DNA from: Leptogorgia sarmentosa | Taxonomy: Eukaryota | Assembly: GCA_964658305.1 (NCBI GenBank) | Contig: OZ210885.1 | Location: forward strand, 5,704,001-5,768,000 | Direction of reading: 5' to 3' | Length of the DNA: 64,000 bases | Part shown: positions 19,801 to 45,500 of the stretch, piece by piece | Position numbering within the stretch: the stretch's first letter is position 1 | Layout: every line of letters starts with the position of its first letter | Notes under the pieces: model-generated | Told to the model about the DNA's origin: nothing | Seen by the model: the letters and a program-made list of their open reading frames with translations, nothing else | Databases searched by the model: none | Made by a program: the position numbers and the translations under genes

Positions 19801-22800
19801 CATTGAAATAATAATATTAACCTTCCCAACGGTTAATCGTATTCTAGTTAAAACACAACACAAACAATAATATCGAAGATTAATCATCGGAAATTTACGA
19901 TATTGGCATTACCTATATCGGCCGGGTGAATTATTCGTTTGCTTTTAAGGATTTGCCGGCGAAGCAAAATCCTTTATGTCATCGGATAGTGTAAGTGCGT
20001 AAGTGCGTAACAATAGAATGGCGATCAGTTCCGACTACTCCAAATCTCGTGATATGTCGGTGGTTGTGTGCGCCATTACTTTTGACGATATATCGGCATA
20101 TGAAATATGTTTTATTCCCTGGGCTGTAGCCTGTATATTATTTAAAAATAGGCTCTTGTATTAACTTAAAAAAAACCATTGCAGGTTATGAAATGCAAAG
20201 GAAAGTCGATCAAATGTCGACAAGTGGAACTTTATATATATTACAATGTCTCCACTGTTGATTATTGTTTCTCCCGTAAATTACACAGAATTTTTTTGCC
20301 AGCGTTCCGCCAGAGCGAGTTTACAATACAATGGCTGTAAATATCGCAAATCCTTACGCACTGTCACAGTGCCTATTTTTATGTCTGGGATAAAATCACT
20401 TCCGATGTATTCGCACGCGACATGAAAACACTGCCTCTTTTTGAAGAATTTTTTACCTATCGCCGCGTAACAGAGACCGTGGAGTTGGGTGAAGCCAGGG
20501 GGGGGGCATGCCCCCCCTCACCTTTTGGCACATGAAGTTCAGTAAATGTTCAGCGCAGCTGATCGTCGGGCAATGCAGAGTAGTTCGACGTAGACGCCTG
20601 CAACTGTGACGCAGAGAATTGGATAAAAACCCGTTTTCCTTAGTTTGCTCATTACTGCAAAGTCAGCTCAAAGCTATTATACACATGCATTGCACACTTT
20701 ATGCTCTCGTGCAATGCACTAACGCTCAGATTTTCAGATGACTATTTATCGTGGGTACTTAGCGATTGAGCACTGAAACGATTCAAATTTTTCCTATCCG
20801 CAGAACTCAATCCACATGCCTGTTCATGCAAGGCTGTCCTCTGCATTAGTTTTAGATTGGTTGCGCAGGGACATAAAGTGTGAGAGAGATGGGGCTGGAA
20901 CACCCCCTCCCCATTATCGTCGTCTGTAAAATTCACTAACTCGGTCCCTTATTTATTTGCGTAAATTTAAATACGGAAAATATAGCCCTGCGAAGTTGGC
21001 AAATTTGTATACATTTGTATTACGCGCGAAATGAAGTAACTAATTTAGCTAGCAATTCACGCACGTAACACAAAAGTATACAAATTTTGCCTACTTTCTA
21101 CGGCTATATTTTCGGCTATATTTTCCGTATTTTACAACATTTTTGCCCCCAAACTTTGCAATTTTACTAATTTTGGGATGGTCTTTAACGCTATTGATAT
21201 GAATTGTACTATTTCGAACTTTTTATGAATTTTGTCTATCATGCAATTGGCCATTCCAGAATGGGTTTATGCGTTGTAAATGCGAGCGTATCAAAGTTTT
21301 TATTGTTGCAAAATATTAAAAAATTCTGCATGTAAAAGAACACGGGTGACAATTGGCTTGAAATAGTTTATAAACCCTGAAAGGTTTAATAGACCTCTAC
21401 AGATTGTGCTAGTAAATTTCAAAAAAGTTGCTCCAAAAACTGCTCCAAAGTTGCTCAAAAGTTGCCGGAAAATTGGAAAAGTTGCTGTTAAATTTGAAAA
21501 GTTGCTATTAGTTGCTAGGATATTTCATGAATGTTCATAGTTCGTACAAAAAAACATATCCATGAGTCATTTACAGGCATTGTGATTGTTGAACAAAGAA
21601 ACCAAACAACATGGCGGTCGCGTGAGTCACGAGATCACGCGAGTCGCGAGATCCTTTATGAATAACCGCTGAAAACCTCACGCATCGCAACGAGTCACGG
21701 GCGCATAAATAGGACGCTCTTTTCGATTATTTTGTTGATCCAGAGATCTAAATATGTTTATAGTGATATGATCAAGATTTTATTCAATAATTTGTGACGA
21801 ATTAGCAGTGTGGAATGTGTAAAAGCCTAAAAGTTGCTTACTGTTGCTCAAAAAAGTAAATTAAGTTGCTCCAAGTTGCTCGAAACCAGAAAAGTTGCTC
21901 GAAACTAGAAAAGTTGCTCAAAAGTTGCCGAGCATAATCTGTAGAGGCCTAAGGTTTAAAACTTGATATAACTCGTAAATTACGTCGAACACTGTTAATA
22001 GGCATTCTAAACTCGTGGATTTGTTTCCAATATAAATTACATGAAAATAATATGTATTCACTCACCGTCGCAGGTTGGAATCGCTGCAGACCATTTTCCG
22101 TTGCTTTGACAAGTTATTCTCTTTGAACCAGTTAACTGGTAACCAGAAAAACACTTGAATTTCGTCGGTCTTTCGGTACAGAATCTTGAATATACAGCAA
22201 TTCGTCCATTTCTTGGGTGTTGTAAAGAGCCACACACCACGGCTAAACATTGAAGAAATACTTGAGCAAAATTAAAGGCAGAAGGTAAATCTAAATTTAA
22301 TGATTCGAGCCCAGGCCCTGCCGTGTCGAGTCAGTACGGGCAAAGGTCATTCATGGGGAATTGGTCTTACTCATTGATATATAGCAATTAGCAAGACTGG
22401 ATAGTGCATCTGCTATGAATAAATGAAGCCGGCTGGCGGTCATATTGCATGGCCCCACTCAAATCTATTCTGGTGTTGGGGAGATGTCTAATAAGTTTCT
22501 ATTTAACAATTAGTCGCCGAAGGCGAGGTGATTACAAGCTCATATTAGCTCTAGTTGCTGATGCTAATGTAAAAACATTTTTCAGATAATTTCTTATCAG
22601 TGGTTGGTCTTATTTCGTCTTAAATTTGCCAATGAATAAGTAATCCAATATATGTCTAATTTTTACTCATTTTTCCTCGTTTTAATCTTTTCCCTTGTTT
22701 TACTTTTTATTCCGCGTTTCATCCTATATTCCGCGTTCACTCTCTATTCCGTTTCCGAAATTCCGTTTCCGCCGTTCCTTTTCTTTAATTCCGTTTCCGC

Positions 22801-23979
22801 ATTTTACCCTTATTAATTTTTCGCGCGTTTATTATAAACAGCGCGCGATTGCGAAGTTGTATTGCCAATCTTAGAAAATCGACTCTATAGGTAAGTCATT
22901 TCGCTCTTTCGCTTTTAATCGGTGTTGCCTCTAGTCTATCCTCTGATGTTTGGGGAGAACTGAGAACAAATATATAATTCGAACGCGTGCGAACATTACA
23001 GACATGCTTAATTGCATATGATCCATGAAACTTACCGGTACATACAGGTTGACGACCCGACCACGTTAGATCAGGGAGACATGTTCTAGTTGAGCTGCCT
23101 CTGAGCTGATAGCACTGAGCGCATGAAAAATGGAGTGTTCTTCCAACTTGTAGAGTTCCGTTCTTGCTTCCATTACGCGGTGTACCAGGATCTTCGCAGC
23201 TCTTACCTGTAAGAATGAACTATCTTAATCATTTCAGCATTTCAGCTTTCCTTTCCCATATTGGTCTCCAAAAAGATTTGCCCACACAAACACAATATTA
23301 AATACAGATATCCACCAGTAAAAAACAGACTCAGTCCAGTCACTTGATGAAACAAATTCCATCGTCTGCTATGTATAAATGAAGCCACTGGCGGCCATTT
23401 TCGATGGCCCGACTCAAGTCTATTTTGATGTAGGGAAGATGTCTAAAAGGTTTCTATACGTTTCTAGTTGCTGGTGCAAATGGAAAAACATTTTCCAAAT
23501 AATAATAGTTACTAGTCTTATTTCTTCCTAAATTTGCCAATGAATAAGCAATTGGGGCCATCCAAAATGTCTGCCAAAAGCCTCATTATGTGGTGTTTAA
23601 AAAGTACTAAGGCTAATATTACGAAATATTTGGGGCTGTATTTCGCAAGTTACATCGAAAAAGATGTTTGCTCATACAGTAGCCTAACTAATTTAGAAAG
23701 CAAGCGCTTTGGCCTAGTCCAAAATTTGACACATTTATAAACCGAACTTCATTAAAAATATTCTGGCTTCAAAATTGAGTCACTGAACACAATAGGATGT
23801 TCGAACCAGTATTAGAATAGATCAGTGGGCTACCTACATATATAAGCTGGCCACAATGATTGACCTTTTTTCACGAAAGAAATGTGAGGCTATGCTAACC
23901 TCTTACCTTGAACTGAATATGCTGCGAACCTAAGACACAACACTATGGCCAGAAATGTCTTGAACAGACAAGGATTCAT
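4865..23979 (-). CDS. Secreted multi-CCP (Sushi) protein with a C-terminal F-type lectin (fucolectin)-like domain; 16 exons, 909 aa
   Basis: Exons 5'->3': 23979-23907 (signal peptide MNPCLFKTFLAIVLCLRFAAYSVQG); 23206-23036, 22242-22066, 19491-19318, 18767-18597, 16324-16148, 15473-15300, 14883-14704, 14178-14005, 12584-12408 (9 CCP); 12023-11895 (S/T linker); 10784-10620, 9517-9347, 7263-7090 (3 CCP); 6675-6518 and 5149-4865 (NIALGKP..SS..AVDG..W.RID..GRYV..EVEVY). All GT-AG, phases compatible, 2730 nt total. No TM segment. Confidence 0.88.
5797..6181. mobile_element. MITE; partial copies at ~11305-11550 and ~20965-21255
   Basis: Termini aatggaccaattgc / gcaattaggtccatt. The internal palindromic aaatgttgtaaaatacggaaaatata motif is shared with the other copies. 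Confidence 0.75.
6240..6474. mobile_element. CCC...GGG MITE with 2-bp TSD (AT), CACTA/EnSpm-like, filled with CACATGTG repeats
   Basis: at|cccgtacgaaaaatacacatgt ... acatgtgtatttttcataaggg|at. Confidence 0.75.
6779..7046. mobile_element. MITE with ~37-bp perfect inverted ends
   Basis: atttcaatagtaccatgatatagcttagcaatttgaa and its exact reverse complement at 7010-7046. Confidence 0.8.
7640..7910 (-). mobile_element. Hairpin-headed repeat element
   Basis: Hairpin at 7802-7908 with a GCGAAGC loop on the minus strand; gattggc near the opposite end. Confidence 0.65.
12634..12870. mobile_element. PIF/Harbinger-like MITE
   Basis: TIR gggccggtt...gtttagcttaaacgg / ccgtttaagctaaac...aaccggccc; 3-bp flanks CTG/CTA. 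Confidence 0.7.
13013..13356. mobile_element. MITE with an internal tRNA-derived segment
   Basis: TIR acgtaccatgac / gtcatggtacgt; interior similar to the elements at 45802 and 53594. Confidence 0.65.
17209..17343 (+). pseudogene. PHD finger fragment (C4HC3), probably transposon-derived
   Basis: CKIC..DDWLGCDKC..FFHANC..FYC*DC, with a TAG between the last two cysteines. Confidence 0.7.
17877..18226. repeat. 43-bp minisatellite, ~8 copies (GGATCCT-rich), preceded by degenerate GATCCT repeats from ~17716
   Basis: tgaatggctt recurs at 17900, 17943, 17986, 18028, 18071, 18114, 18157 and 18200. Confidence 0.95.
18812..19140 (+). mobile_element. Hairpin-headed repeat element
   Basis: Long imperfect hairpin (actttatagtttc...gaaaccataaagt) with accaatcagag near the distal end. 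Confidence 0.6.
21390..21951. mobile_element. hAT-like MITE, 8-bp TSD AGGTTTAA, subterminal AAGTTGCT repeats
   Basis: aggtttaa|tagacctctacagattgtgct ... agcataatctgtagaggccta|aggtttaa. Confidence 0.85.
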
Positions 23980-26900: not shown

Positions 26901-28863
26901 GCATAGACAACATTGTATGAAAGTGGATCATATGTTGAAAAGGTTCCCACGTCCCTATTCAATGAAATCAACCATACGTTTTCGAAATCAGGCAAGAGAA
27001 CCATGCAACTATCTGAAATACTTCCAGAGTTTGCTCAAGTAATAATAAATTCGTACCAGCCGCATGCTGTTCTGCGCAACGTTAATTCAGTTCCTTCGCC
27101 GAATGGAAACATACCTACGGAGGCCTGATTTCGAGAACTTCTGGTTGATTTCATTGAATAGGGACGTGGGAACGTTTTCAACATTCGGGGGCGGCTGCGA
27201 ACCTCACGCCACAAGAAAAAAATTATATCTCGATTCTCGACCAAGTTGAGTTTTGAGCGGTAGATACATGCATGGCATTCTTCGTCCTAATACTGTAGTT
27301 CCTAATAAGAATATAATTATGCAATATCTATGAAATGTCATGAACGTACTGTATAGCCGCTTTGCCGAGTAAACGAAAAATTGTTGAAAATAATGAGTCA
27401 CTGCAAGCATAAACATCTATGTGATTTTTGAACGAATGATAACAGTTTCCGTGACTAGCGTGTAACCACAGCAGGTTTCCTTTTCTGTTAGCTAAAAATA
27501 GTGTTAATATTAACTATGCTTTTAAAAAGTTGGGTTATGCTAATCTGCGGCCTGTGATTTGTTTTGCCTCATCAACTTGTCGCGGCAATGAATTAGTTCC
27601 ATTTTGCTGCGACCCGATTCATTTTCCCATGCGATAGAGGCTAAGCTATGCTGAAGACTTGCTTCAAAGTAAAGTAAAAAATTAGAGAAGTATAAACTCG
27701 AAAAAATATAAAATGCTCGGAAATGCCATTTCCTTCGATTTGGGCATTGACCAATAACTCCAATAGGTGTCATAACTTGGCAGAAGTGGCATGTAAATAA
27801 ATGATTAATCAGAAATTTGCTCTTATATGGAGGGTTATAGTTGCATTTTGCAGTTACAGTTGAAATTGCATAAATCTGAGAGTAAACGGGATTTTCGTGC
27901 ACACGTCATTTGCGCATGCTCAAAAATTTGGCAAGGAAATTACATACATTGTTATGGAGTTTTTATCAAATACAAACTAACACTTTGTGCGATGTCGCTT
28001 CAACATTTGTCCTGGCGCTAGAGGGTAGGTTGATATGTCGTGATTGAAGATTTGATGTTTTTATTTGGGTAGATGTATCGTGCACCTGTATTTTTCCATT
28101 GAATTTTGACTTGTTTTCGCCATAAAAATGTATTAACTGAGTCTTATTTACGTCCAATATGTGAATTTGGACCATCGTATTTGTTCTCCTGTTGAACTAT
28201 CCAACCTTGCCCTGATGCCTTTGAAAAGACAAAAAATACTACATTTCCATTTTATAGGTTTCGCATGAAATCGATGTTTTACAGCCCAGCTGCATTTCGT
28301 CTGTGAATCTCAGTTATCTGATAAAATCACAACAACAGTTCGTGTTTGCTGCAATCGTTGCTACTTTACATAAGATATTTGAGGTTTTTTCGATTCAACC
28401 AAACCACAATGTGTTTGGTACGAAAATCTATATACTGTATAGCCTATATGTTTTCCGTACAATATACTATCAAGCCGAGTTTAAATTTAAAATGCTTCTA
28501 TGCACTTCAACGGCATTTAAACATCATATATATACTGCAAGTCAAAGTGAACAGATTAAATTTTGAAGATATTTTAATAGATCAAATATTTACATGTATA
28601 TTTACTGTAAAGATACTCCGTGCGATAATGGTGCTCCGTGCGAATAAACCTAAACCGTGACGAATGAGATTTTTGGTTTTCAATAATTTATTGTCTGTAT
28701 TGTTCACAATTCTGCATAAATGGTCTCATCAGTCATCAGCCACTATCACTTCCTGGCGTAAATGTTGCATTATAAAAAATCCTTGAAAATAGTAAGTTAG
28801 TGTGCAATAAATAAAAATGTTCATTTACCAACCCAACACATTTTTCAAACCTTCGTTCTGACC

Positions 28864-30951
28864 TCAGACCGACATCGGATTGCTCTTCACTTCGCGCTCG
28901 GTGCGTCTCGGTCCCGACGTTGGACGACGGTTTATCACAGGGAAAAACTCCTTCAATCTTTCGCGTGTTTTCCAATCACCAGGACTCTCTCTGATGATTT
29001 GATGAACTACAAGCGGCAGTGTAGGAAACTTCTGACAAAAATATTCGTCGATGGAGGTAACGCTACCCGTAGCTCCCAATGGTCGAGGTTTATCACCCCA
29101 ATGTTGACGGAGGTTTCTCATGAGTCGAAGACAGTGGGTATAACGGTTACCATTATATTTTGATGGAGTCGATCCACCATGACATAGCGCAGTGAGTTCT
29201 GGATTGATAACTGCTTTCCAATCATTGGGTAACAATGGATTTCGAGGTTTTAATGGATCAGAGGCGTCCAGCTGATTCGAAACATCGCAGTTGGGATGTT
29301 TCGTGGAATTCTTGATCTCAGGTTGATTGCCTACAGCTTCTAAGAATCTCATCTGTTCTTCGGATGAGAGAAAGTAGGGGTGCTTTAAGGCTTGCTCCAC
29401 ATACGGTCGTTTTTTGGGGTCCTTAGCCAACATCTGAGAGAGCAGATCTTTGACCACAGGATCACTGAGCTCACTTAATCCTACTGGTTTGTCATCATGT
29501 AAATTTATCAGTCGATGTATTTCAGCGCCAAAAGGATGCTTTCCTTTTGTCAAGATGTAGAATGCCAGCATACCTGCCACTTGGATATCTGATGCTTCTT
29601 TGCACTTGAGCTGTACTGATGCATCTGATGGGCCTCTCACCTCATCGGAGTATAATTTACCCCAGTCAATGCATTCATGTGGAATCCAGTCTTTTGATCC
29701 ACATTCGTTATTAGTATTATAGGTACTTGCACCTGGAAAGGAGAAAAAGCCGTTTTAAATTGTTCTTACGATTCCCGGTTTTTCTTTTTGATGGACGTGA
29801 ATTAGTGGATTACTAACAAATGCGCTGAGTTCATTAATTTCCACTTCTAAACATCCATAGCTCACCTTAACAACATTCTCACGAACGCATGTATCAGATC
29901 ACGTAAAATTTTAGATATATACTACTATATATATATATAGCTTAATTCCTAAAAGACTTATGTTTACAGTCAATTCTGTGAGGTGAAAGTGAACGAATGC
30001 GATTTTCACCAATATTTTTTATCCAACTCGTATTTGCTCATTTTGCCCGATTTTGTACAAAACGTATGTCATTCGACAGCTACAAACCTGATTTTTCTTA
30101 ATATCAACAAATTACGTATAGTTATCAAGCAATTTTCACACAGTAACTTGCCAAAGATGGGCTCGGTTTTTTTGAGATACCCTGTATATATGTAGCTATT
30201 AAGCAAACTGCCAAAGACCTGTTTGTGATATTCTTATCACTTATGTGTATTGTGTGGTATCTTTAGGGGAAATATTTGTGTTATGTTTAGATCTTGAGAT
30301 AATACCTTCTTCTGGGAAAAAGCGTCCAATTCCAAAATCAGACAAAACTAAATCACCATTCACATCAATAAGTATATTAGTAGGCTTTAAGTCTCGGTGT
30401 AAAATCCTAGGCTCTCTACTATGTAGCGCTTTCAGCCCTTCCAACACTTGGCTTATCATTTTTCGAGCACGGGGTTCTGTTATGAAATCACCTTCTTTCT
30501 TAACAAACTCTTCAAGATTTTGCTCATATAAATTCAGAATCAAGTAACCAAAGTCAGGGTTCGATATGTCATCATAGAAGTGATAATTTACAACTCGTGG
30601 TGACTCGACAGCATTTCGCGAAGCCAAAATGTCTCGCTCGTTCTTCAGCAATTTACAAACGTCTTTTGGCAAACGTTTTATCGCACGTTCTATGCCATCT
30701 GATCCTAAGCAAACATACACCTTCGTGCCGTAACTACCACTGCCGATTACGAAGTCTTCTCGAAAACATACGCCGTTGTCGTTAATAATAGTAATTTCCC
30801 GATCCCTTTCCTCGTTGCTCCATACGTTTGAAAGAAGTTCGAACTTTTCTCTGTGCTTCACGGAGACTTTTTTCCAATCTTTGGGTTTCATGGCTGCGTT
30901 AAGTATTTTATTGTTATTCAAAACTCTTGACGGTCCTCTTATTCCTGCCAT
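28864..30951 (-). CDS. IRE1/RNase L-family kinase-KEN endoribonuclease, copy 1 (2 coding exons, 504 aa)
   Basis: Exons 30951-30306 and 29732-28864, phase 1. Kinase motifs GSGSYG, AIK, HRDLKPTNIL, DFG and YILTKGKHPFG. KEN motifs Y..LRLMRNLRQHW and YFCQKFPTL. Confidence 0.9.
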
Positions 30952-33900
30952 GTTGAAAATTCCTCTTTGTTCAAACGAATTTGACGCAATTGTATTGGTT
31001 TGTCTATTTACTTGGAGTTCAAAGATATGACAACTTCCTGCAAAACTGACATTTAAAGTGCTCTTTGCTAGTTGCGATGATGAACAGGAACGTGAGAATG
31101 AATCTCCTAGCTAATTCATTGGCGTCGCTACTAGTTGATGAAGCAAAACAAATCTGTGGCCACAAAAATTTGCATAAATCATAGCAGTATTTTTAGCTAG
31201 CTAGCAGGAAAGAAAACCTGCTGTGGTTGCAATACACTATGCAACCTCAAACTACTCCACACGCTAGGAAAACTGTTGTTATTCGTGCATGAATCAAAGA
31301 GATTTTTATGTTCTTCAATATAACTTATTGTTTTCGACAATATTTTGTTAACTCCGACACTGTTAGTACCCTTGTAACATTTCAGTGATATTGCATGCGT
31401 GCTTAACAGGGATTATTAATAACGCTAACAGGTGGTCATGGCCATAAAAACAAAATTATGATGTTTCATCGTCTTTTCTTCGTTATTTCCCTTGAAATCC
31501 TGTTTTCATGGTGGTTCCACTACGGCACATTCAACTGTTTATTTCATCCCCACTTATAAGACCTAATGTTTAGAACACTAACAGGTTGCTCACCGAGCTA
31601 GAGGGTCGCGACTTACTATCTTGACTATATGATAAAAAAGGATGAAATAATACGCATATATATACTGTAAGCCTGGTGCAACATTTGTTTATGGGGAGAT
31701 ACATGTAATCTGCAACCTGTGCAAGAAAAGAAAATTTATACAACAAATTTTGGCGATTTTTTTGTGCTTTTCTACTTTGTGCAACTATTGTACAACTATT
31801 GTCAATAAATCATCTATTACTGTGTTTTACTCTATTTTTTTACATTATACTGCAATGCATGTGATGTTATCATAAGCGTACGGGACCGGTAAATTTGGAG
31901 AGGCGCGGGAGCCTTTTTGCAAAAAAATTCCGTATTGGCCAAAGAAATTAATTTTTTTTGACAACTAACTATATACAAATTCTGCTGTTCTGTACTATAC
32001 AACTATATAATTGCGTTCGTTACGACCAATGTATATCACGCAATTGAAATGTGCACAGAAAAAGTAACTGCTTCTTCCCTTTCTGCTGCCAAATCTGTCA
32101 GTAATAAGATCAATCTCATCACCCATGACTGTGCTTGCATAATTATGCCCTCTCTTTTAATGCGATGCTGTTCACCCGCGTTTGATTGCTCGTGTTGCGG
32201 AGGTATGTTTCCATTCGGCGAAGGCCACTGAATTAACGTTGCGCGGAACAGCATGCGGCTGGTACGAATTTATTATTACTTGAGCAAATTCTGGAAGTAT
32301 TTCAGATAGTTGCATGTTTCTCTTGCCTGATTTCGAGGACTTATGGTTGATTTCATTGAATAAGGACGTGGGAACGTTTTCAACTTTCGGGAGCGGCTGC
32401 GAACCTCACGCCACAAGAAAAGAATTATATCTCGACCAACTTGAGTTTTGAGCGGTAGATGCATGTATGGCATTCTTCGTCCTAATACTGTAGTTCCTAA
32501 TAAAAATATAATTATGCAATATCTATGTCATGATGAACGTACTGTATAGCCACTTTGCCGAGTAAACGAAAAATTGTTGAAAATAATGAGTCACTGCAAG
32601 CATAAATATCTATGTGATTTTTGAACGAATGATAACAGTTTCCGTGACAAGCGTGTAACCACAGCAGGTTTCCTTTTCTGTTGGCTAAAATTAGTTTATT
32701 ATGCTCTTAAAAGTTGGGTTATGCTATTAAATTTGCGGCCTGTAATTTGTTTTGCCTCATCAACTTGTGGCGGCAATGAATTAGTTTCATTTTGCTGCGA
32801 CCCGATTCATTTTCCCATGCGAGAAAGAGGCTAAGCTATGCTGAAGACTTGCTTCATAGGGAATGTAGAAAATTAGAGAAGACTAAACTCGAAAAAATAT
32901 AAAATGCTCGGAAATGCCATTTCCTTAATTCCTTCGATTTGGGCATTGACCAATAGGTGTCATAACTTGCCAGAAGTGGCATGTAAATAAATGATTAATC
33001 ACAAATCTGCTCTTATATGGAAGGTTATAGGTGCGAGCTAACAGACAACATGAATTTGAAATTGCATAAATCTTAGAGTAAGCGGGATTCTGGTGGACAC
33101 GTTTTTTGCGCATGCTCAAATATTTGGCAAGGAAATTACATACATTGTTATGGAGTTTTGTACTGTAAACGTATAAAATACAAAATAACGCTTTGTGCGA
33201 TGTTGCTTCAACATTTGCCATGGCGCTAGAGGGTAGGTTGATATCTCGTGATTATATTGAAGATTTGATGTTTTTATTTGGGTAGATGTATCGTGCACCT
33301 GTATTTTTCGATTGAATTTTGACTTGTTTTCGCCATAAAAAATGTATGAACTGAGTCTTATTTACGTCCGATATGTGAATTTGGACCAACGTAATTGTTC
33401 TCCTGTTGAACTATGCAACCTTGCCTAGCTGATGACTTTGGAAAGACCAAAAATACTACATTTCCATTTTAAAGGTTTCACATGAAATCGATGTTTTACA
33501 GCCCAGGTGTATTTCGTCTGTGAATCTCAGTTAACTGATAAAATCAGAACAACGGTTCATGTTTGTTGCAATCGTTGCTACTTTACATAAGATATTTGAG
33601 GTATTTTCGATTTAACCAAACCACAATGTAAACTGTATAGCCTATATGTTTTCCGTACAATATAATATCAAGCCGAGTTTAAATTTAAATTGCTTCTATA
33701 CACTTCAACGGCATTTAAACATCATACTGTAAGTCAAAGTGGACAGATTAAATTTTTAAGATATTTTAATATATCGAATATTTACATGTATTACTGTAAA
33801 GATGCCTGTGTGCATTGTTTATAGCAAGTAGTTGTTGGCGTGCTTGGCAAATGGTGCTCCGTGCGAATAAACTTAAACCGTGACGAGTGAGATTTTGGTT

Positions 33901-34112
33901 TTCAATAATTTATTGTCTGTATTGTTCACAAATCTGCATAAATGGTCTCATCAGTCATCAGCCACTATTACTTCCTAGCGTATAAAAAATCCGGGAAAAT
34001 AGTAAGTTAGTGTGCAATAAATAAAATGTTCATTTACCAACCCAACACATTTTGCAAACCTTCGTTCTGACCTCAGACCGACATCGGATTGCTCTTCACT
34101 TCGTGCTCGGTG

Positions 34113-36186
34113 CTAACGTCTCGGTCCCGACGTTGGGCGACGGTTTATCACAGGGAAAAACTCCTTCAATCTTTCGCGTGTTTTCCAATCACCAGGACTC
34201 TCTCTGATGATTTGATGAACTACAAGCGGCAGTGTAGGAAACTTCTGACAAAAATATTCGTCGATGGAGGTAACGCTACCCGTAGCTCCCAATGGTCGAG
34301 GTTTATCACCCCAATGTTGACGGAGGTTTCTCATGAGTCGAAGACAGTGGGTATAACGGTTACCATTAAATTTTGATGGAGTCGATCCACCATCACAAAG
34401 CGCAGTGAATTCTGGATTGATAACTGCTTTCCAATCATTTGGTAACAATGGATTTCGAGGTTTTAATGGATCAGAGGCGTCCAGCTGATTCGAAACATCG
34501 CAGTTGGGATGTTTCGTGGGATTCTTGATCTCAGGTTGATTGCCTATAGCTTCTAAGAATCTCATCTGTTCTTCGGTTGAGAGAAAGTAGGGGTGCTTTA
34601 AGGCTTGCTCCACATACGGTCGTTTTTTTAGGTCCTTAGCCAACATCTGGGAGAGCAGATCTTTGACCACAGGATCACTGAGCTCACTTAATCCTACTGG
34701 TTTGTCATCATGTAAATTTATCAGTCGATGTATTTCAGCGCCAAAAGGATGCTTTCCTTTTGTCAAGATGTAGAATGCCAGCATACCTGCCACTTGGATA
34801 TCTGATGCTTCTTTGCACTTGAGCTGTACTGATGCATCTGATGGGCCTCTCACCTCATCGGAGTATAATTTAGCCCAGTCAATGCATTCATGTGCAATCC
34901 AGTCTTTTGATCCACATTCGCTATAAGTATTATAGGTACTTGCACCTGGAAAGGAGAAAAAGCCGTTTAAAATTGCTCTTACGATTTCCGGTTTTTCTTT
35001 TTGGAGTGAATTAGCGGATTCACCAAATGCGATGAGTACAATTTCCACATCTAAACATCCATGTATAGTTCTCCTTAACAACATTCTCACGAACGCACGT
35101 ATCAGATCACGTAAAATTCTCATATAATTATATAATTTATATAATTATATCATAGCTTAATTCCCAAAAGACTTATGTTTACAATCAATTCTGCGAGGAA
35201 TGCGATTTTCACCAATATTTTTTATCCAACTCGTATTTGCTCATTTTGCCCGATTTTGTACAAAACGTATGTCATTCGACAGCTACAAACCTGATTTTTT
35301 TTAATATCAACAAATTACGTATAGTTATCAAGCAATTTTCACACAGTAACTTGCCAAAGATGGGCTCGGTTTTTTTGAGATACCCTGTATATATGTAGCT
35401 ATTAAGCAAACTGCCAAATACCTGTTTATGCTATTCTTATCACTTATGTGTGGTATCTTTAGGGGAAATATTTGTGTGATGTTTAGAACTTGAGATAATA
35501 CCTTGTTCTGGGAAAAAGCGTCCAATTCCAAAATCAGACAAAACTAAATCACCATTCACATCAATAAGTATATTAGTAGGCTTTAAGTCTCGGTGTAAAA
35601 TCCTAGGCTCTCTACTATGTAACGCTTTCAGCCCTTCCAACACTTGGCTTATCATTTTTCGAGCACGGGGTTCTGTTATGAAATCACCTTCTTTCTCAAC
35701 AAACTCTTCAAGATTTTGCTCATATAAATTCAGAATCAAGTAACCAAAACCAGGGTCGGATCTGTCATCATAGAAGTGATAATTTACAACTCGTGGTGAC
35801 TCGACAACATTGGGCGAAGTCAAAATATCTCGCTCGTTCTTCAGCAATTTACAAACGTCTTTTGGCAAACGTTTTATCGCACGTTCTATGCCATCTGATC
35901 CTAAGCAAACATACACCTTCGTGCCATAACTACCACTGCCGATTACGAAGTCTTCTCGAAAACATACGCCGTTGTCGTTAATGATAGTAATTTTCCAATC
36001 CTTATTTAGGTGCTCGTTTTTCGCTTGGGATCTCCACACATTTGAAAGAAGTTCGAATTTTTTTCTGTGCTTCACGGAGACTTTTTTCCGATCTTTGGGT
36101 CTCATGGCTACGATACGTATATTATTGTCATTCAAAACTCTTCGACTATTGATAAACGTCGTTGAAACGGGTGCAGTTTTATTCAT
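34113..36186 (-). CDS. IRE1/RNase L-family kinase-KEN endoribonuclease, copy 2 (2 coding exons, 505 aa)
   Basis: Exons 36186-35502 and 34945-34113, phase 1. Same kinase and KEN motifs as copy 1 and near-identical sequence. An in-frame TGA lies about 25 codons upstream of the ATG. Confidence 0.9.
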
Positions 36187-37189
36187 GTTAGTGTGGGTTG
36201 AAGGGTTCCGGCACTGCCAGGTCTTCTTATTCCTGCTATGTTGAAAATTCCTCTTCGTTCACACAAATTTATCCCAATTGCATTGGTTTCTCTACTTTCT
36301 TCGAGTTCAAAGAAATGACAACTTCCTGGGAAACTGACAATTAAAGTGCTCTTTGCTAGTTGTGATGATGAACAGGAACGTGAGAATGAACCTAGCTAAT
36401 TCATTGGCGTCGCTACTAGTTGATGAAGCAAAACAAATCTGTGGCCACAAAAGTATTATTATTAGGCCTATAGCAGTATTTTTAGCTAGCTAGCAGGAAC
36501 GAAAACCTGCTGTGGTTGCAACACACTATGCAACCTCAAACTACTCTTCACGCTAGGAAAACTGTTGTTATTTGTGCATATATAAAATACAGAACAATGG
36601 ACACTCCGAAAAAGGTTTTCATTTTGATTCTTCATAAAATTACTTAGTGGTAACCGTAATTTGTGCATATATCAAAAAGATCTTTATGTTCGTCGGTATA
36701 ACTTATTGTTTTCGACAATATTTTGTTAACTCCGACACTGTTAGTACCCTTGTAACATTTCAGTGATATTGCATGCGTGCTTAACAGGGATTATCAATAA
36801 CGCTAACAGGTGGTCATGGCAAAAAAAAAAAACAAAGCATGATTTTTCATCGTCATTTCTTCGTTATTTCCCTTGAAATCTTGTCTGCATGCATGGTGGT
36901 TCCACTACGGCACATTCCAACATTTCCTAATGTTTAGAACACTAACAGGTTGCTCACCCAGCTAGAGGGTCGCCAGTTACTATCTTGACTATATGATAGA
37001 AAGGATGAAATAATACGCATATATACTGTAAGCCTGGTGCAACATTTGTTTAGGGGGACATACATGTAATCTGCAATCTGTGCAAGAAAATGAAATTTAT
37101 ACAACAAATTTTCGCGATTCTTTTGTGCTTTTCCTTGCTCACAAGCTAGCATTCATTACTCACATCATTACCTTCTGGTTCATTCATAG

Positions 37190-37510
37190 GATGAATTTAT
37201 CATCCGTCTCGAGACAGGGCTGAACAATGTCCCTTTTTTGAAGGCCCCAGATGTCCTCACGTACCACGTGCGTCAAAAACATGAGAAGAGTTTTCTCCAA
37301 AGAGTTTCAGATTTCTTCTTAACAAGTCGAACAGACGACGTGTTGGACGGAAGCAAGGAGAGTAATAAAAACGAACTTGAAACGGAGTTGAAGTTTCTGG
37401 ATTATCAGGTGGAAAAGGCGCTTGAAGTGAAGTTGGAAAATCTCCATTCGAAGTTACAACGCGAGCTCGGCGCAATCCGTGATGGGTTGAAAAAGTTGGA
37501 AAAACAATAG
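37190..37510 (+). pseudogene. Orphan terminal coding exon with a C-terminal coiled coil (possibly the tail of a TRP-type channel or other membrane protein)
   Basis: ttcatag|GAT acceptor, then 106 open codons DEFIIRLETGL...VEKALEVKLENLHSKLQRELGAIRDGLKKLEKQ* with heptad character. No upstream partner exons found. Family assignment is tentative. Confidence 0.45.
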
Positions 37511-38808
37511 CGAAGTTAAAGTGAATTAAACGATCAAGAATTTGACGTTTAGTGACAAAAAATCTGGTTGAGCGGCGCGGAGGATAGAAGGATTGTGGCC
37601 GTCAATCTCACTTATATATAAACATTGTTGTATTAGCAGAATCATATTAGTATACTATTACAAACGCTGAAATTTCATTGGCTGCTGCACTCGCTATCGA
37701 ATAAATAATTTGAACAGATTGTCGATGAGCGCGATCCCCAATTGTCACGTGATCATCATTTAAAATCGGACTCTTACTTTTAGAAGTCGCAAGCCACAAT
37801 TTGCAGTTTTTTGTCTTTTTGGGATATCTTATTGAAATTCTACTGAAACATTTGGCAAACCAAACGTTTTTCGCCGTCATGTTGTATTGTATTTGCTGCT
37901 ATAGTAGGCTATATTTGTATTTGGTTTATATAATATTAGATAGCGAGCACCATAACAAGTGGATTTTTGTCAAAGGAAATGTTCCTGGCCCGCGGTTTAA
38001 ATAATTTTGAATTGTGCAATATTTCATAATTATTTGATCTCTGATTATCCAGGAGTTCTTTTGATTTCCGTGGATAATAAAAACGTATATCCAAAATTCC
38101 GGCGCAAACTTAAGTCTGTATTTGATATAAATACTGACTGTATTTTCCGTTTACGATATTTCCAAGACAGGTGATGTACTTTATTTGAAAGCACTAGTCA
38201 CTAGACTAGGTACTCTTTCTGGTGTTTCTTTAGAACTCCCTGAATGAATGAATTGAATTCTCATCAACTTTCATCTTTGTTTTTTCCGGACTTTAAATCA
38301 AGAATAAAAATCTGCAAACGTGGCAAGTGAAGGTAAGGGATCAAAACAATAAACAGCAAATAAGATACAATACAATATTATAAGATTCGATGTTCCTAAA
38401 AACCTTTCGAGCGCTAGACGTCTTGAAGCGTTCCTCGTCCCCAAGCCCCGAGGATTCCAAACGTCGAATCCTATTGTATACATTATACAATATAAGATTC
38501 GTTATATATATATTTACGTATATAAAAACATTAATATAATAATTATACATGTTTACGTAGTGAGTAAAAGTGAGTAAAACCTTCGCTGTTGTTTGCTCTT
38601 AATCAATATTTCAATAACAAATTAGTGAAGGACGCTGTTCAAGTTTTTGTTTTAGTATATAATGCAAAACAGCACGCAGACTTAAGTGTTAAACCATTTC
38701 TAAAGTGCACATTAGATGGCAGCTGCCAATCATACTGTATTTGTACATGTGCGGATGCATGGGCGTACGGGCCGGGGGGGGGCACAGCCTCCTAAACGTT
38801 TCACTGTC

Positions 38809-39024
38809 GGGCAAGTGGGCAAGTGGGCAAGTGGGCAAGTGGGCAAATGGGCAAGTGGGCAAGTGGGCAAATGGGCAAGTGGGCAAGTGGGCAAGTGGGC
38901 AAGTGGGCAAGTGGGCAAGTGGGCAAGTGGGCAAGTGGGCAAGTGGGCAAGTGGGCAAGTGGGCAAGTGGGCAAGTGGGCAAGTGGGCAAGTGGGCAAGT
39001 GGGCAAGTGGGCAAGTGAGCAAGT
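38809..39024. repeat. (GGGCAAGT)x27 tandem repeat
   Basis: Read directly; three units carry single substitutions. Confidence 0.97.
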
Positions 39025-39573
39025 GTCGTTCGGGAAAACATAATTCCATCATAGTTGATAAAATATTAACTTTATTAGACAATATAACATGAATAATACG
39101 ATGAAAATCATTATCCTCTAAAACATCCTATAAGTTATGAAGTATTCCAATTCCAAAAGCACAAGTATTTCAGATCGAATATGTATTACACAACGAAAGA
39201 GGTATAACATGAGACCTAGAAAATGCCATTTTCGACGATCTAGAGACCCGAAATTTTCAAAATATTCACGCTCGGCGCCAACCCCGGTGGCGCCTCGTGA
39301 GCTTCATTCCCCCAGTATTTGTCAGCTTCCCACTTCAAATTTGGTTCCGTCAGCTTTGTGAGGCAAACGATGATTTGTCGACCACCCAAACAAGACAGGG
39401 CAAACAAAGCGTGGTTTCCCAAACTCGTGTGCAAATTTAAATCCTTAATAAGTGCATATATTTTTCGCTTCATTGATTATTATAGTGATCGTGCGGGAAT
39501 ACAGCAACCACCAAAGTGACAGCATAAGATTTAGGTCGTGCATGCTCTTTCAGTATTCAAATTCAGCGACAAA

Positions 39574-42500
39574 ATGTCGAAGCTTTTCAATCGTTGGCTC
39601 TCTGTTTTTGGAATATGTTTACTGGTGGTTGAAAGTAAGTGTAATCCGCTATAGTATATTATTTAGTACAGCAACAATACAATATCTCATTACGCAAATT
39701 GCCCACGAATACCGATTATAGGTACTCAAATACATGTTTATCAGCTTTCATTGATAGACGTTATAGTTTGTATGTATCCATTGTTTGAACATCAATAGCT
39801 GGGTTTTTTAAAGAAATGCTGATAGCATAGTTAATTAGTTACAGCGGAATAACAATCTTGTTTGATCCCATATATAATAGAAACAGGACTATTAATAATT
39901 TGATCAAATATCGAACATACTTGAGTAGTTGGCGCAAAGACACGCAAACTATATAATACACAAACTGTGAATATTTAGGTTTCAAAATAACAGATTACTA
40001 CCTTCACTATATCTCAAAATCTAGAACCCGTATCCTAATCCTGACCCTAACCCTGACCCTAACCCTAAGCCTCAACCTAATCTTTTTCCAAACTCTGGTG
40101 CTAACGCATTCATATATCGTATTTAAAAATAGGAGAGTTGAGGCTCGTTTCGGCCCTGTTTACCTTGAAACATTTATGATATGTTTTACATGTCGTTTCC
40201 GGACTTACCGCATATCGAAATTGACCACAATTTCAATTCAGGGATTAAAATAAGAAGCGACGTGCATTACCGAGGTAAAATACATAAACAAACAAGACCC
40301 TTGTAACTATTGATCATATCATAATTGAGGTAGCTACATATATAATGAGTCACATGACTTCTACTTTAGTTGTGTTAAGAGCAAAGAAAAAGTTTATGTT
40401 AAAATATTGAGACAAATTGAAACAGGTTAAAAATTAATTTTTGTGGTCGTAATAAATATACCTGATGGGCTTTGCCAGCACGTTCTACATCCTTCATGCA
40501 AAACACTACAACTTCAGAAATATCTACATTTCTTTCGTTTCAACATTTGTCGCCATTTTGAAAGCTCTGACAATGACAATGTTTATCGCGTACGGATGGT
40601 ATGTGGGGCTTTACGAAGTGAAAATGGTCTTTCTTTTCTTGTTCATGCTGATAATGTGCACAGTTGTATAATTAAACATTATCACTAATTTCTACGGTAT
40701 ACGTATTTTCAATACTGAGTACTTCTTCTCTATTAATTTGATATACGTATAATCTCTAGCTACCATCATGGACTGATACTTTTTAGAAATAATCTAATTG
40801 ATTCGTCATTTTTGCTCTTATTTTCATGTGGACCAGGAAGTGACCCACTGAACAAACCGACTAGCATACGAAGTAACGTTAGAGAATACATTCAAAGAGT
40901 TCCACAGAACCAATGTTGATAACGTTAAAGCCGTTTGCATCAACTAGAGAAAACCTCCCATTGATCTTACTAATGTTAAATGGCGTTACAGTCTCTTGCG
41001 CGATATACAGCCTTTGTTTACAAATACACTTTATCTTTTTGTGTAACTCGTTGAATAAACAGTTTTTACCACAAGGACCAGCATTTAAAAGATTTACAAT
41101 TGACGTAACTTCTATAAATCATGCAAGTTTGATGTTCTCAACTGAGAAAGGCTGCCAAACTGAAGCGTGGTCCACAATTGTTTAAATTTTTGAGACATGC
41201 TCACAAGTAACTGTAACCTGTCTTTAATTTTAAAAAGTATGTGCTTTTATAAGCTGCCAGCCATTTCATAGTCTCGAACGACAGTTTACCCAAACCCTCC
41301 ATTAAAGAAGTGCACGTTTCGCCCCTGATTCGATTGCAAAATAATCCCTTGTTATCCTTATTTTCTACTTTGAAAGTCAGTACAATGAGATACAGTGAAA
41401 GCAACAATCTTTTTTCATATCGAAAAATAAAGCTACGCAGCTAAAATCTTCCCTCATGCAGGACGTTAAAACTCACAAAGCTTACTAGATCTAGTATGAT
41501 ATTAGATACATGCATGGCGTTTGGGACCTTCTAATATTTAGTAATAAATTATGTCTAAAAAATTAATCAAATATTTTTTAAATATAAAATATACTCGAAT
41601 ACAACACTCATATAACAAATTAGTGACACCAAACCTCACTCAAATCTATTGATTTACGTCGTTGTGTTTAGGTTGTCAAAGTTTTTTCCTGAGGCATACT
41701 CAGACTGGAAAGTGTATCACAGTATCGGAAGAACTCGTGTACAACTTCCCAGACCATGCATTTCCTTACTTTGTTGTTATGACTGACAACTGCTTGGACG
41801 AAAAATCACAATTTCGTTATCTTAACAGTGAACTTTTACACAATATTGAAAAGGAGGGCACGCTGGTGTATTCATCAACATCTACCTATCGCGCTCGTTG
41901 GGCTCTATACAAAGCTGTATCATTAAACGGAAAACGTTATCAAAACGATGCACAACATCGTTTGAAACAGACCGATGGGGGATCTTTATTCTTTTACAAG
42001 AGAGACGACCGTGTTTGTGCGGAACCTTCGTCACAGTATTTATTAGGGAAGACGTACTGTGACAGAGCAAACCAAACCTTTACTTTCGGTAAGTGGAATG
42101 TTCAGGAAAAATTCTAAAATTTTGTAAAAGTATTGAGAGATACTGGAAACCTTTTAAATGTAGCTAATAACTGATAATTAACAAGCTTTTGCTATCCTAC
42201 TAGCAACCCATCATGACGGACGATATATCAACTATAGCCATACGAGAAATACGGTAGAGGATTTACAGTCCACATCGGCAGCGTAGGCATGGGCGTACCG
42301 GGCGGGGGGGCGGCAGCCCCCCCCAGTTTGTTGGGCAAACAAGGCCAGTCGGACAATATTCGCCTCACAGTCGGGTAAATGATTGTCGTACACACTGATA
42401 TTACATGATAAATTAACTTGTGAATGTATTATGTATACGTATTAATTAAATTTAACGGGAATATGAGTATCAATTACAAAATAAAAGTCGGACAATTTTC

Positions 42501-45500
42501 TAGATAGCCGGGCAAATTGCCGAACGCCCCCCTGAAAAATGTTGGCCGGTACGCCCATGAGCGTAGGTAGCACTTCAGGATAACGAACAACAGCAGGTCG
42601 CGCACATTTATATACTTTAATTTGAAAAGTAACGTGCGAATAAATAACAGAATCATTTGATATTTCCCATTGAAGTCAAGGTGGACTGTAAATCGGACGA
42701 AGGCCCTTCGGTCGAAACGTCGAATTTGTTTTATCGTTTAGGTAGTGAGATTATTCTTCCTGCTCTTGTTCTGTTATTTGAAACTGTTTTTTTCTGTGCG
42801 CGACATAAACATTAAAACCGATAAACGCAGGATATACTTTGAACAAGAAAAGTGTGTATTTGTCCGAAAAACGCTAAATTTGGTCACTTGAGATCAACAT
42901 AATTTTCCATAGCAGTAATGGTGGATTTAACCATCCATCGTTTTGAAATGTTAGTATGCGATGAAAATGCATGGGTTCAGGAGATCATTCTGATGGTAAG
43001 GCTAATTCTGTTTTTCAGGCTCAGTGACGGCTTTCAACGCTTCAATGGAAAATGTTAGTTGCTCTCCAGTACAACATATGGTGGTGAAAAGTGCGGATTG
43101 TGGAGATTTTAATGTGCAAGGCAACTTTAATGACGACAAAAATATTGATACACAATGCAGCCAACTTGCCAATTGTCAGGTGAAATCTCTTTGTGGCGGG
43201 AAAACATCTTGCGAGCTGACAATGAACAACGCTCTATTGGCATCAAAATATCGCTCTGATAGCTCAAAACAAATATATACCAAGTACACTTGTGTGGATA
43301 GCTACAACTCTTCCGCTATAACTACAGGTAATAATTGTACTGGGGTCACTGGGTACCGATAGATTATTCATTTCCCCTGTTCTATTACAACTAATTACTG
43401 GTTGTTTAAATAGCTTCAGTCACGACTAACTTAGAATAGATAGGGTTGGTTATCCGGCTGTAGCTTAAAATTTACACTGTGTGAGTGTGACCTAAGTAAT
43501 TTTGACCACATGCTTTTGTAAGGTGAAATACCCCCCCCCCCTTCCATGCAATCTCGTGGCTCAGCTAATTCCCCTGTACGGCATAAAGTCTGATTTTTAA
43601 CGTTTTAGCTCCCAATATTAGACTGACAAGCCAAAGCCAAGGACTCATTGAAATAAAAGATGGTTCAGCTTGGAGGAAAGTTGTTGAAACTGGCTGGGAT
43701 AGGATTCGTCAGAAAATGCTGTGTCAGCACTTGGGATTTGAAGAAACTAGTGAAAATAGAATTGAAACTTTATCATTAAAATCTCAGACTACACAAATAA
43801 AGATTGCCACTGGGGACCTGATATGCTATAACAAACAATTGAATGGAACATCCTGTTGCGTCCATCTTGAACCTTCAACAGCCACAACAATTGCTATGGC
43901 TCCATATGTGACGTGTAAGTAGGCATACACAAACTGATAACAAATATAGTTATAGAATGCCAAAAATGTTCATTGTTTTAAATTATTTCAGTTAAGTTTA
44001 CGATTTACAAACTGAAACTGAAACATATGAATTGCCGCGTACGTTGTAATTGTAACAATTTAACAGTACTTCATGCTGCTAGAATATAGTTGCATTTATT
44101 CGGGATCATAGTTACATTCTTGGTTAGTTCCCTTTCAATGGAAAATACTCGGTTCTCGATACTCTAGCGCATGCATGTTTACTATTATTGAATTAATTTT
44201 CATAAAACTTAACATATAGAATCTGATTATTTTTACCGCAAACAAAGTCGAAGCTATAGATTATAATTATGTACGCGTACATATATTAGAAAAGTATTAC
44301 CTAAAATATAAAAATCCTTCAAAACAAGGGGAAATACACTGATCTCTTTTTCATCCTCACAACAGGCCAAATATGTAACAGCCCACTACTCCAAAACGAA
44401 AATACGTTTCCCGACTCCGCGTTTTCTGGCAGTGGTGATTCAAGTAATAAATACAAAGACGCGAGGATTACTAAAAGTGGCTGGTGTCCATCTGGGTCTG
44501 GTAGTGCATACCTCTTGCTTGATCTCCAGAAAGAATATCACATTACTCAAGTTGTGGTTATGGCTAACAAGGAACAAACAAAATGGAGCGGCTCATATTC
44601 CATAAACTACAGCGTTGATACTTCTTATAAAAATTCTGCGCAGGTATATATAAGTTTTGGAAATAATTGGAATTTAAAAAAAAACCCCGCCTCTTGGAAA
44701 CATTCAGATGATCTCGTATTCGTGTTTCAGCCAATCAGCGCTCAGAAAGGGTTGCCCGAATAGAAATCCATTTTGCTATATTCACACGATTACGTATATC
44801 TTTCGTCATTCTGTACGAAACAAGTTGAAATTTTGTAATTATGTTTGGTTATGAGAACTATACTCTGACTATAATATGGAATCGAAATAAAGTATATTAT
44901 GAGAGATATTCAGTTGTTTCGGTCGAAAAATGGATTTCTATTTGACAGCTAGTCCCAGTACTTTTCCGTGTATCGAGATCACCTGGATAGTTTAACTTAT
45001 GTAATTTTGGGGATACATATGATTTGAAGATTTCAATAAAGAAAAGTTGAAGAGTAACAATTTTTTTCTCTTTTTCAGATTTCGGGAAACCTGGACGGTT
45101 ACCAAGCATCAAGAACAAGCCTAAATATTTATAATGTTCGTCACGTGAAGTTAGCATCCACTGGGAACAGAAACTTTTGTCTAAGAGTAGAATTCTGTGG
45201 AGAGGGTATGACTTTGATTATCCTGTTTCTATGAAGGTTTTCCAGAAAAATTTTAGATTGTAGCATGCGCCCTTGGGATGACGCAACAACGTGTAGAGCC
45301 CTCCCCTATTTTCAGCTTCGAAGAGGTCGCCCCCCCCCCAAAAAAAAAGTCCTGGATTTCAAGTCCCTGGTACATTTAATGCCTTATTCATAAAATCATA
45401 AGTCATTTGATTATCAATGCACTGTATTTAGTTCAAAGGCCAGCTCCAGTGTCCAATATCATCGTTTCACCATCCCAGTACGTTGCACGTTTGACGTGGG

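What the first reader, a model, noticed from the sequence alone, without database searches (positions are those of the whole stretch)
28864..36186. Tandem pair of sensor-less kinase-KEN ribonucleases (IRE1/RNase L family) inside an immune-type cluster
Seen: two ~505-aa proteins made of a short basic N-terminus, a kinase with intact GxGxxG/K/HRD/DFG motifs and a KEN RNase with RNLRQH. There is no signal peptide, TM helix, luminal domain or ankyrin repeat, and an in-frame stop upstream of the copy-2 ATG argues against more N-terminal coding sequence. Established: IRE1 has a luminal sensor, TM and RNKKHH; RNase L has ankyrin repeats, a pseudokinase and RNLGEH; both need dimerisation to cleave RNA. 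Luminal-less IRE1-like kinases are known elsewhere (e.g. plant IRE1C), so the architecture is not unprecedented. Inference: a cytosolic RNase L-like effector with an active kinase, triggered by something other than 2-5A or ER stress, possibly antiviral or cell-death related.
Basis: partly seen in the sequence, partly recalled or inferred. Interest (0 to 1): 0.85.

Follow-up and report, generated by a model that had tools for sequence, protein, structure and literature searches.

The report
Sensor-free coral cousins of RNase L
Two neighbouring duplicate genes, likely from a soft coral, encode intact, spliced kinase-plus-RNA-cutting proteins with no sensor part; they belong to a little-studied animal family from which the vertebrate antiviral enzyme RNase L likely arose, and they are predicted to act as defensive RNA cutters, which nobody has tested.

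Summary
Observation confirmed. Two minus-strand, two-exon genes (504 and 505 aa, 92% identical) encode kinase + KEN RNase with no signal, membrane, luminal or ankyrin part. A public contig joins across the intron, and another runs unspliced past copy 1's upstream in-frame stop. The nearest named relatives are octocoral. The genes are neither IRE1 nor RNase L. They sit in a separate animal clade (corals, brachiopod, hemichordates, amphioxus, fish) that RNase L resembles more than it resembles IRE1, and that shares RNase L's pre-kinase linker segment. Relatives carry swappable N-terminal modules (TPR, RING-TRAF zinc finger, ankyrin, HEPN, CARD, PYRIN); these two copies carry none. All four IRE1 catalytic residues are present in copy 1; copy 2 has Tyr-to-Phe at one. 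Chu et al. 2023 already list such kinase-RNase proteins as RNase L's source stock, without testing their function. Best reading: a latent cytosolic defence RNase switched on by dimerisation, likely with sensor-bearing paralogues or after induction. Activity, trigger and immune role are untested. The 'immune cluster' is not supported. The scan noted related kinase-KEN genes in other genomes.

The parts
30306..30951 (-). Copy 1 exon 1: start codon, pre-kinase segment, kinase up to just past DFG
29733..30305 (-). Copy 1 intron, 573 nt, GT-AG, phase 1
   Evidence: a contig of run X4 skips 573 nt here
28864..29732 (-). Copy 1 exon 2: kinase C-lobe, KEN RNase, stop codon
30817..30891 (-). Copy 1 residues 21-45: conserved pre-kinase motif W-x3-S-x2-H-x2-K-F-x2-L, predicted helix, aligned to the RNase L ANK-kinase linker
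29101..29157 (-). Copy 1 KEN active site Y408, R421, N422, H426 (yeast Ire1 Y1043, R1056, N1057, H1061)
   Evidence: alignment; residue roles from PMC3149027
31111..31113 (-). In-frame TAG upstream of the copy 1 ATG
   Evidence: covered without a joint by a 274-nt contig of run X4 spanning 30851-31124
35502..36186 (-). Copy 2 exon 1; its ATG lies in a stretch of about 74 nt absent from copy 1, and the codon matching copy 1's ATG reads ATA
34946..35501 (-). Copy 2 intron, 556 nt, GT-AG
   Evidence: the spliced X4 contig carries copy 2 letters on both sides of the joint
34113..34945 (-). Copy 2 exon 2; a 4-nt insertion near the end brings an earlier stop (12 residues shorter tail)
34314..34370 (-). 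Copy 2 KEN active site F421 (Tyr in copy 1), R434, N435, H439
27123..31772 (.). Duplicated unit 1 (gene plus flanks)
   Evidence: self-BLAST, 87-90% identity to unit 2
32325..37133 (.). Duplicated unit 2

Best explanation
These are two recently duplicated, intact members of an animal family of cytosolic kinase-KEN proteins that is distinct from IRE1 and is likely the stock from which RNase L arose; they likely work as latent RNA-cutting defence effectors that would switch on when two molecules dimerise. Shown: gene structure, domains, motifs, splicing, family placement apart from IRE1, and swappable N-terminal modules on relatives. Inferred from IRE1 and RNase L: the kinase binds nucleotide and may autophosphorylate, two KEN domains pair to form one active site, and His/Tyr/Arg/Asn cut single-stranded RNA. 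Inferred more weakly: since these copies have no sensor, the trigger is likely supplied from outside, by pairing with a sensor-bearing paralogue (TPR, RING-TRAF or ankyrin type) or by induced expression, with the conserved pre-kinase helix as the likely control surface. Copy 2 would be a weaker nuclease (Tyr-to-Phe).
For: Pfam domains and motifs. R-N-x-x-x-H is intact in 109 of 120 listed relatives. Copy-to-copy dN/dS is 0.44 in the kinase and 0.43 in KEN, on few changes. Spliced contig and unspliced 5' contig in run X4; a related spliced contig L001 has an in-frame stop before its ATG. Tree: both copies lie among 43 rows split from 18 IRE1-side rows, SH-aLRT 99. RNase L structures score 200 and 178 bits against an ankyrin-free profile of this family and 132 and 118 against an IRE1 profile. 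A model of a 71%-identical relative aligns to RNase L from model residue 18-21 (chain 331-336); that linker takes part in 2-5A binding and interdomain contacts in RNase L (PMC4718504). The pre-kinase profile scores below 0 bits or misses in 18 of 18 IRE1-side rows and 12 bits or more in 12 of 20 held-out relatives. N-terminal TPR, ankyrin, HEPN, CARD, PYRIN, UEV, ubiquitin and GT4-conflict modules occur in relatives; TPR and RING-TRAF modules occur in proteins 65-78% identical to exon 1. 13 of 120 hits share one contig length, implying a large tandem array. Ire1 heterodimers with one dead subunit are active (PMC3149027).
Against: No activity, ligand, induction or phenotype data exist here. By raw score and fold the proteins are closer to IRE1 than to RNase L (profile 268-281 against 178-200 bits; Z 29-34 against 27-28). 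RNase L itself was not in my tree. The IRE1 N-lobe dimer salt-bridge residues R594, D620, R627 (PMC4536996) map to I, N, N in the family profile, so IRE1-type dimerisation cannot be assumed. Several CARD, PYRIN and UEV relatives lack a Pfam KEN hit, so the kinase may matter more than the nuclease in part of the clade. Contig depth on these copies is low (about 3-5). Some long fusions in databases are probably gene-model joins.
Confidence: 0.55

Rival explanations
1. Active RNases used in a non-immune stress or developmental RNA-decay role, in the manner of IRE1-dependent decay or luminal-less plant IRE1C.
For: Fold and sequence are closest to IRE1. A luminal-less IRE1 isoform functions in plant gametogenesis (PMC6883098 abstract).
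Against: No membrane anchor; separate clade from IRE1; lineage-specific arrays and CARD, PYRIN, TRAF, HEPN modules on relatives are typical of immune genes (established knowledge).
Confidence: 0.15
2. Signalling kinases or scaffolds in which the KEN domain is of minor use.
For: Kinase motifs are nearly invariant; several relatives have lost a detectable KEN domain; copy 2 has Tyr-to-Phe.
Against: R-N-x-x-x-H is kept in 109 of 120 close relatives, and KEN dN/dS equals that of the kinase; Y1043F lowers Ire1 cleavage only about tenfold.
Confidence: 0.12
3. Truncated by-products of a birth-and-death gene family: copies that lost their sensor exon and are drifting, still transcribed.
For: The closest relatives include sensor-bearing forms; N-termini differ by indels and dN/dS there is 0.79; copy 2 has W26R, P321L, Y408F and a changed start and stop; low contig depth.
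Against: Both frames are open over 500 codons with intact splice sites; short-N-terminus proteins of 440-560 aa recur across octocorals and in fish clusters; dN/dS is under 0.5 in both domains.
Confidence: 0.13
4. The genes are 3' parts of longer genes whose upstream sensor or membrane exons lie further away.
For: A candidate splice acceptor lies in the 5' region of both copies (31038 and 36326).
Against: The X4 contig runs colinearly 86 nt past copy 1's candidate acceptor and through the stop. In copy 2 an in-frame stop lies between that acceptor and the ATG. TPR, ankyrin, RING and IRE1 luminal N-termini of relatives find no match in the window. L001 is a spliced relative with a closed 5' end.
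Confidence: 0.05

Closest known systems
RNase L (human 4OAV/4OAU, pig 4O1O)
   Same: Cytosolic kinase-fold + KEN; R-N-x-x-x-H site; the pre-kinase linker segment aligns structurally; RNase L scores better against this family than against IRE1.
   Different: No ankyrin repeats, so no known 2-5A pocket; kinase keeps HRD and DFG, whereas RNase L is a pseudokinase (PMC4718504); found outside jawed vertebrates.
IRE1 (yeast Ire1p, human ERN1)
   Same: Best sequence and fold match; intact kinase; catalytic Y/R/N/H spacing identical in copy 1.
   Different: No signal peptide, luminal domain or membrane helix; RNLRQH instead of RNKKHH; N-lobe dimer salt-bridge residues not kept; extra pre-kinase motif; separate branch in the tree.
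Non-RNase L kinase-RNase homologues of Chu et al. 2023 (PMC10400998; clades C1-C4, D, E)
   Same: Kinase + RNase proteins outside RNase L, some with independently gained ankyrins, proposed as the stock of RNase L.
   Different: That paper tested none of them in the text I read, and that text does not describe octocoral arrays or the range of N-terminal modules. I could not see its figure or supplement, so clade assignment is open.
Arabidopsis IRE1C (PMC6883098)
   Same: Kinase-RNase lacking a luminal sensor.
   Different: A plant IRE1 isoform tied to IRE1B in gametogenesis; a separate origin (inferred; not in my tree).

Membership tests
Kinase-KEN (IRE1/RNase L) superfamily | Protein kinase domain followed by a KEN/Ribonuc_2-5A domain | tested here: met
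Kinase-KEN (IRE1/RNase L) superfamily | R-N-x3-H catalytic motif with upstream Tyr | tested here: met
   Copy 1 complete; copy 2 keeps R, N, H but has Phe for Tyr
Kinase-KEN (IRE1/RNase L) superfamily | Dimer-dependent endoribonuclease activity | not testable with these tools
   Needs biochemistry; the complex predictor was not available
IRE1 | Signal peptide, luminal sensor and transmembrane helix | tested here: not met
   Hydropathy, upstream stops, contig, no luminal match in the window
IRE1 | Groups with canonical IRE1 in a tree | tested here: not met
   (quick tree, SH-aLRT 99, midpoint root)
IRE1 | Intact kinase motifs | tested here: met
RNase L | N-terminal ankyrin repeats that bind 2-5A | tested here: not met
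RNase L | Pseudokinase | tested here: not met
   HRD and DFG intact; catalytic activity itself untested
RNase L | Structured linker before the kinase N-lobe | tested here: met
   Model of a relative aligns to RNase L residues 331-336 onward; motif census
RNase L | Nested in or sister to the RNase L clade in a tree | tested here: inconclusive
   No RNase L sequence was available for the tree; only the profile asymmetry
Chu et al. 2023 clades C1-C4, D, E | Placement in one of their clades | not testable with these tools
   Figure and supplement not readable

The most novel reading that the evidence does not exclude
Animals have a third, ancient kinase-RNase immune platform beside IRE1 and RNase L: a modular effector cassette (linker helix + active kinase + KEN) onto which lineages bolt different sensors, massively expanded in octocorals, with sensor-less copies such as these acting as helper nucleases for sensor-bearing paralogues. 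It would be the living form of the RNase L precursor and a candidate RNA-destroying arm of invertebrate and fish antiviral defence, where RNase L is absent.
Probability: 0.3. Interest if true: 0.85.

Novelty: new variant of a known kind. Interest (0 to 1): 0.55.

Why it matters
What RNase L's ancestor did before it gained ankyrin repeats, and which nuclease serves antiviral RNA decay in animals without RNase L, are open questions. These minimal, soluble, 500-residue proteins with an apparently live kinase are simple test objects for both, for example in the yeast growth and RNA-decay assay already used for RNase L. The locus itself is one of many similar copies, so the value lies at family level.

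Tried and rejected
No whole genome is held, so copy number in this organism and synteny were not tested; the metagenome scan gave one locus, a spliced contig (119 pattern matches, 1 confirmed). No RNA holder is listed for the stretch; run X4 is taken as RNA only because a contig skips the intron. X4 and X5 show little or no cover in the intron and flanks, which is no proof of anything. The careful tree did not finish in two runs, so support is SH-aLRT only; 22 of 83 full-length domain rows were left out (isoforms and redundant multi-domain Xenia models), and the 18-row IRE1-side group was fixed after seeing the first tree (14 chosen beforehand, 4 added). The fold match to IRE1 starts at model residue 50, but IRE1 crystal chains begin there, so that alone does not show absence of the linker helix. 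A Maf-bZIP-like N-terminus in one relative is weak (E 0.008, below cut-off). A transposon-cassette reading of the flanking inverted repeat was dropped: arms are 64% alike, lie inside the duplicated unit and show no target-site duplication by eye. A search of the Nematostella antiviral paper for IRE1-like genes found nothing in text or in 4 supplementary files held; its large data tables may not be among them. Nine literature searches found no functional study of this family; the library lacks most subscription papers.

Full report
On the minus strand lie two genes of two exons each: copy 1 from ATG 30951 to stop 28864 (504 aa, 573-nt intron) and copy 2 from ATG 36186 to stop 34113 (505 aa, 556-nt intron), with GT-AG ends. 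They are 91.8% identical over 490 residues and sit in a tandem duplication of about 4.7 kb, 27123-31772 and 32325-37133, at 87-90% DNA identity. Pfam finds Pkinase and Ribonuc_2-5A in both. The P-loop, beta3 Lys, alphaC Glu, HRDLKPTN and DFG are intact.

The genes appear complete and transcribed. No hydrophobic segment precedes the kinase. In-frame stops lie 54 and 25 codons upstream. Of four public runs laid on copy 1, run X4 holds a 355-nt contig that skips exactly the 573-nt intron; its three differing letters are those of copy 2. X4 also holds a gap-free 274-nt contig over 30851-31124, which is copy 1-type, passes the candidate splice acceptor at 31038 and includes the upstream stop. The run's kind is not on record, so RNA is inferred from the joint, and depth is low. 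A related 2462-nt spliced contig, L001, has an in-frame stop before its ATG. N-terminal extensions of relatives, including IRE1 luminal, TPR, ankyrin and RING parts, have no match in the window.

The organism is likely an octocoral: the closest named relatives are from Paramuricea, Dendronephthya and Xenia. Exon 2 found 129 relatives among 539 candidates of 158-504 aa and 18 among 1462 longer ones. 13 of the 120 listed share one contig length, which implies a large tandem array. R-N-x-x-x-H is intact in 109 of these 120. By the alignment to yeast Ire1, copy 1 Y408, R421, N422 and H426 match Y1043, R1056, N1057 and H1061, the catalytic residues defined in PMC3149027 (passages read). Copy 2 has Phe for the Tyr; in Ire1 that change costs about tenfold. 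dN/dS between the copies is 0.44 (kinase), 0.43 (KEN) and 0.79 (N-terminus), on only 17 synonymous and 36 replacement changes.

A profile search of 1.84 billion representatives extended the family. Named members among the 30 looked up come from lungfish, several teleosts, amphioxus, two hemichordates, a brachiopod, a sea anemone and octocorals; the atlas lists three kinase + KEN clusters of 459-523 aa as nearest, two mostly chordate. A quick maximum-likelihood tree of 61 kinase-KEN rows (22 of 83 left out) separates 18 IRE1-side rows from 43 rows that include both copies, SH-aLRT 99. RNase L was not in the tree. As a substitute, RNase L structures score 200 and 178 bits against a profile of 15 ankyrin-free family members and 132 and 118 against a profile of 14 IRE1-like proteins. 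Against this, IRE1 structures score higher still on the family profile (268-281 bits). An AlphaFold model of a 71%-identical relative (pLDDT 90.8) matches IRE1 at Z 29-34 and RNase L at Z 27-28; the RNase L alignments begin at model residue 18-21 and chain residue 331-336. That segment carries a conserved W-x3-S-x2-H/W-x2-K-x3-L motif. A profile of it scores under 0 bits or misses in 18 of 18 IRE1-side rows and scores 12 bits or more in 12 of 20 held-out relatives. In RNase L the ankyrin-kinase linker takes part in 2-5A binding and interdomain contacts (PMC4718504, passages).

Relatives carry changing N-terminal modules. Among 62 proteins scanned (59 chosen from the 150 hits, plus 3 earlier hits) there are TPR, ankyrin, HEPN_DZIP3, CARD, PYRIN (one with a caspase), UEV, ubiquitin-like and GT4-conflict domains. 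Several CARD, PYRIN and UEV forms lack a Pfam KEN hit, and asparaginase, PALP and multi-kinase fusions are probably gene-model joins. In the closest tier, 65-78% identical to exon 1, TPR and RING plus TRAF-type zinc fingers occur in one reading frame with the kinase. Swappable sensors on a fixed effector, with lineage-specific arrays, is the usual pattern of innate immune genes (established knowledge). The two window copies are the bare form.

Mechanism. By analogy with IRE1 and RNase L, which both need a dimer to form the RNase site (PMC4536996, passages), I infer a latent cytosolic RNase switched on by dimerisation. The IRE1 N-lobe salt-bridge residues map to I, N, N in the family, so the dimer is likely controlled differently, and the linker helix is the best candidate. 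With no sensor of their own, these copies would be triggered by pairing with sensor-bearing paralogues or by induced expression; Ire1 dimers with one dead subunit remain active, so mixed dimers are feasible. I put the defence-RNase reading at 0.55; the specific trigger is weaker than that.

The neighbours hold sushi, F5/8, SRCR, FN3 and weak lectin domains (11 of 15 ORFs with hits). These are common extracellular domains, and no synteny test was possible, so the immune-cluster argument adds nothing.

Prior knowledge. Chu et al. 2023 (PMC10400998; parts 1-3 of 6 read, figure and supplement not seen) report kinase + RNase homologues across eukaryotes in ten clades, derive RNase L from such a protein by ankyrin gain, and note independent ankyrin gains; the text read tests only OAS with RNase L. 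Anantharaman et al. 2013 (PMC3710099, passages) note KEN expansions in Oikopleura and monocots. Public databases label the octocoral and fish proteins 'IRE1-like'. Nine searches found no functional study of this clade. Earlier notes of this scan describe related kinase-KEN genes in sea squirts and a protist, one fused to a RIG-I-type helicase; I did not check them.

Verdict: a real, intact, likely expressed pair; not IRE1 and not RNase L by membership, RNase L-like by ancestry and predicted working. It is a variant of a known kind, already catalogued in outline but functionally unstudied. Interest 0.55.

Noticed in passing
window 27319-27626 and 31094-31396 (and 32560-32784 with 36396-36520): Each gene is bracketed by a degenerate inverted repeat of about 300 bp (64% alike; alignment score 185 against a shuffle maximum of 51). 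One arm is the gene's immediate 5' flank, the other lies 1.2 kb past the stop. Possibly the remnant promoter of a lost inverted paralogue; unexplained.
   Followed up: partly
window 26932-27184 and 32198-32384: A 253-bp element with 62-bp inverted ends marks the left edge of unit 1; a partial copy in the opposite orientation marks the left edge of unit 2, suggesting template switching at the duplication junction.
   Followed up: partly
window 37190-37510 (+): A 106-codon open frame after a splice-acceptor-like site, ending in a coiled-coil-like tail; looks like the last exon of a plus-strand gene whose upstream exons I did not find. No Pfam hit.
   Followed up: partly
window 4865-23219 (-) and 55169-62430 (+): Two sushi-repeat genes with matching exons in opposite orientation flank the region.
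   Followed up: no
window 41653-49806 (+): A probable receptor gene with lectin, SRCR, F5/8 and FN3 domains and a tyrosine-rich tail.
   Followed up: no
window 38689-39127: An 8-bp tandem repeat that gives spurious repetitive open frames.
   Followed up: no
window 31052, 31119, 36283 (-): Upstream ATGs in the 5' regions of both copies could form short upstream frames that limit translation.
   Followed up: no
proteins P0245, P0230, P0254, P0151: Striking architectures in relatives: PYRIN-kinase-caspase (fish), GT4-conflict glycosyltransferase-kinase-KEN (hemichordates), HEPN-kinase-KEN (Xenia).
   Followed up: partly
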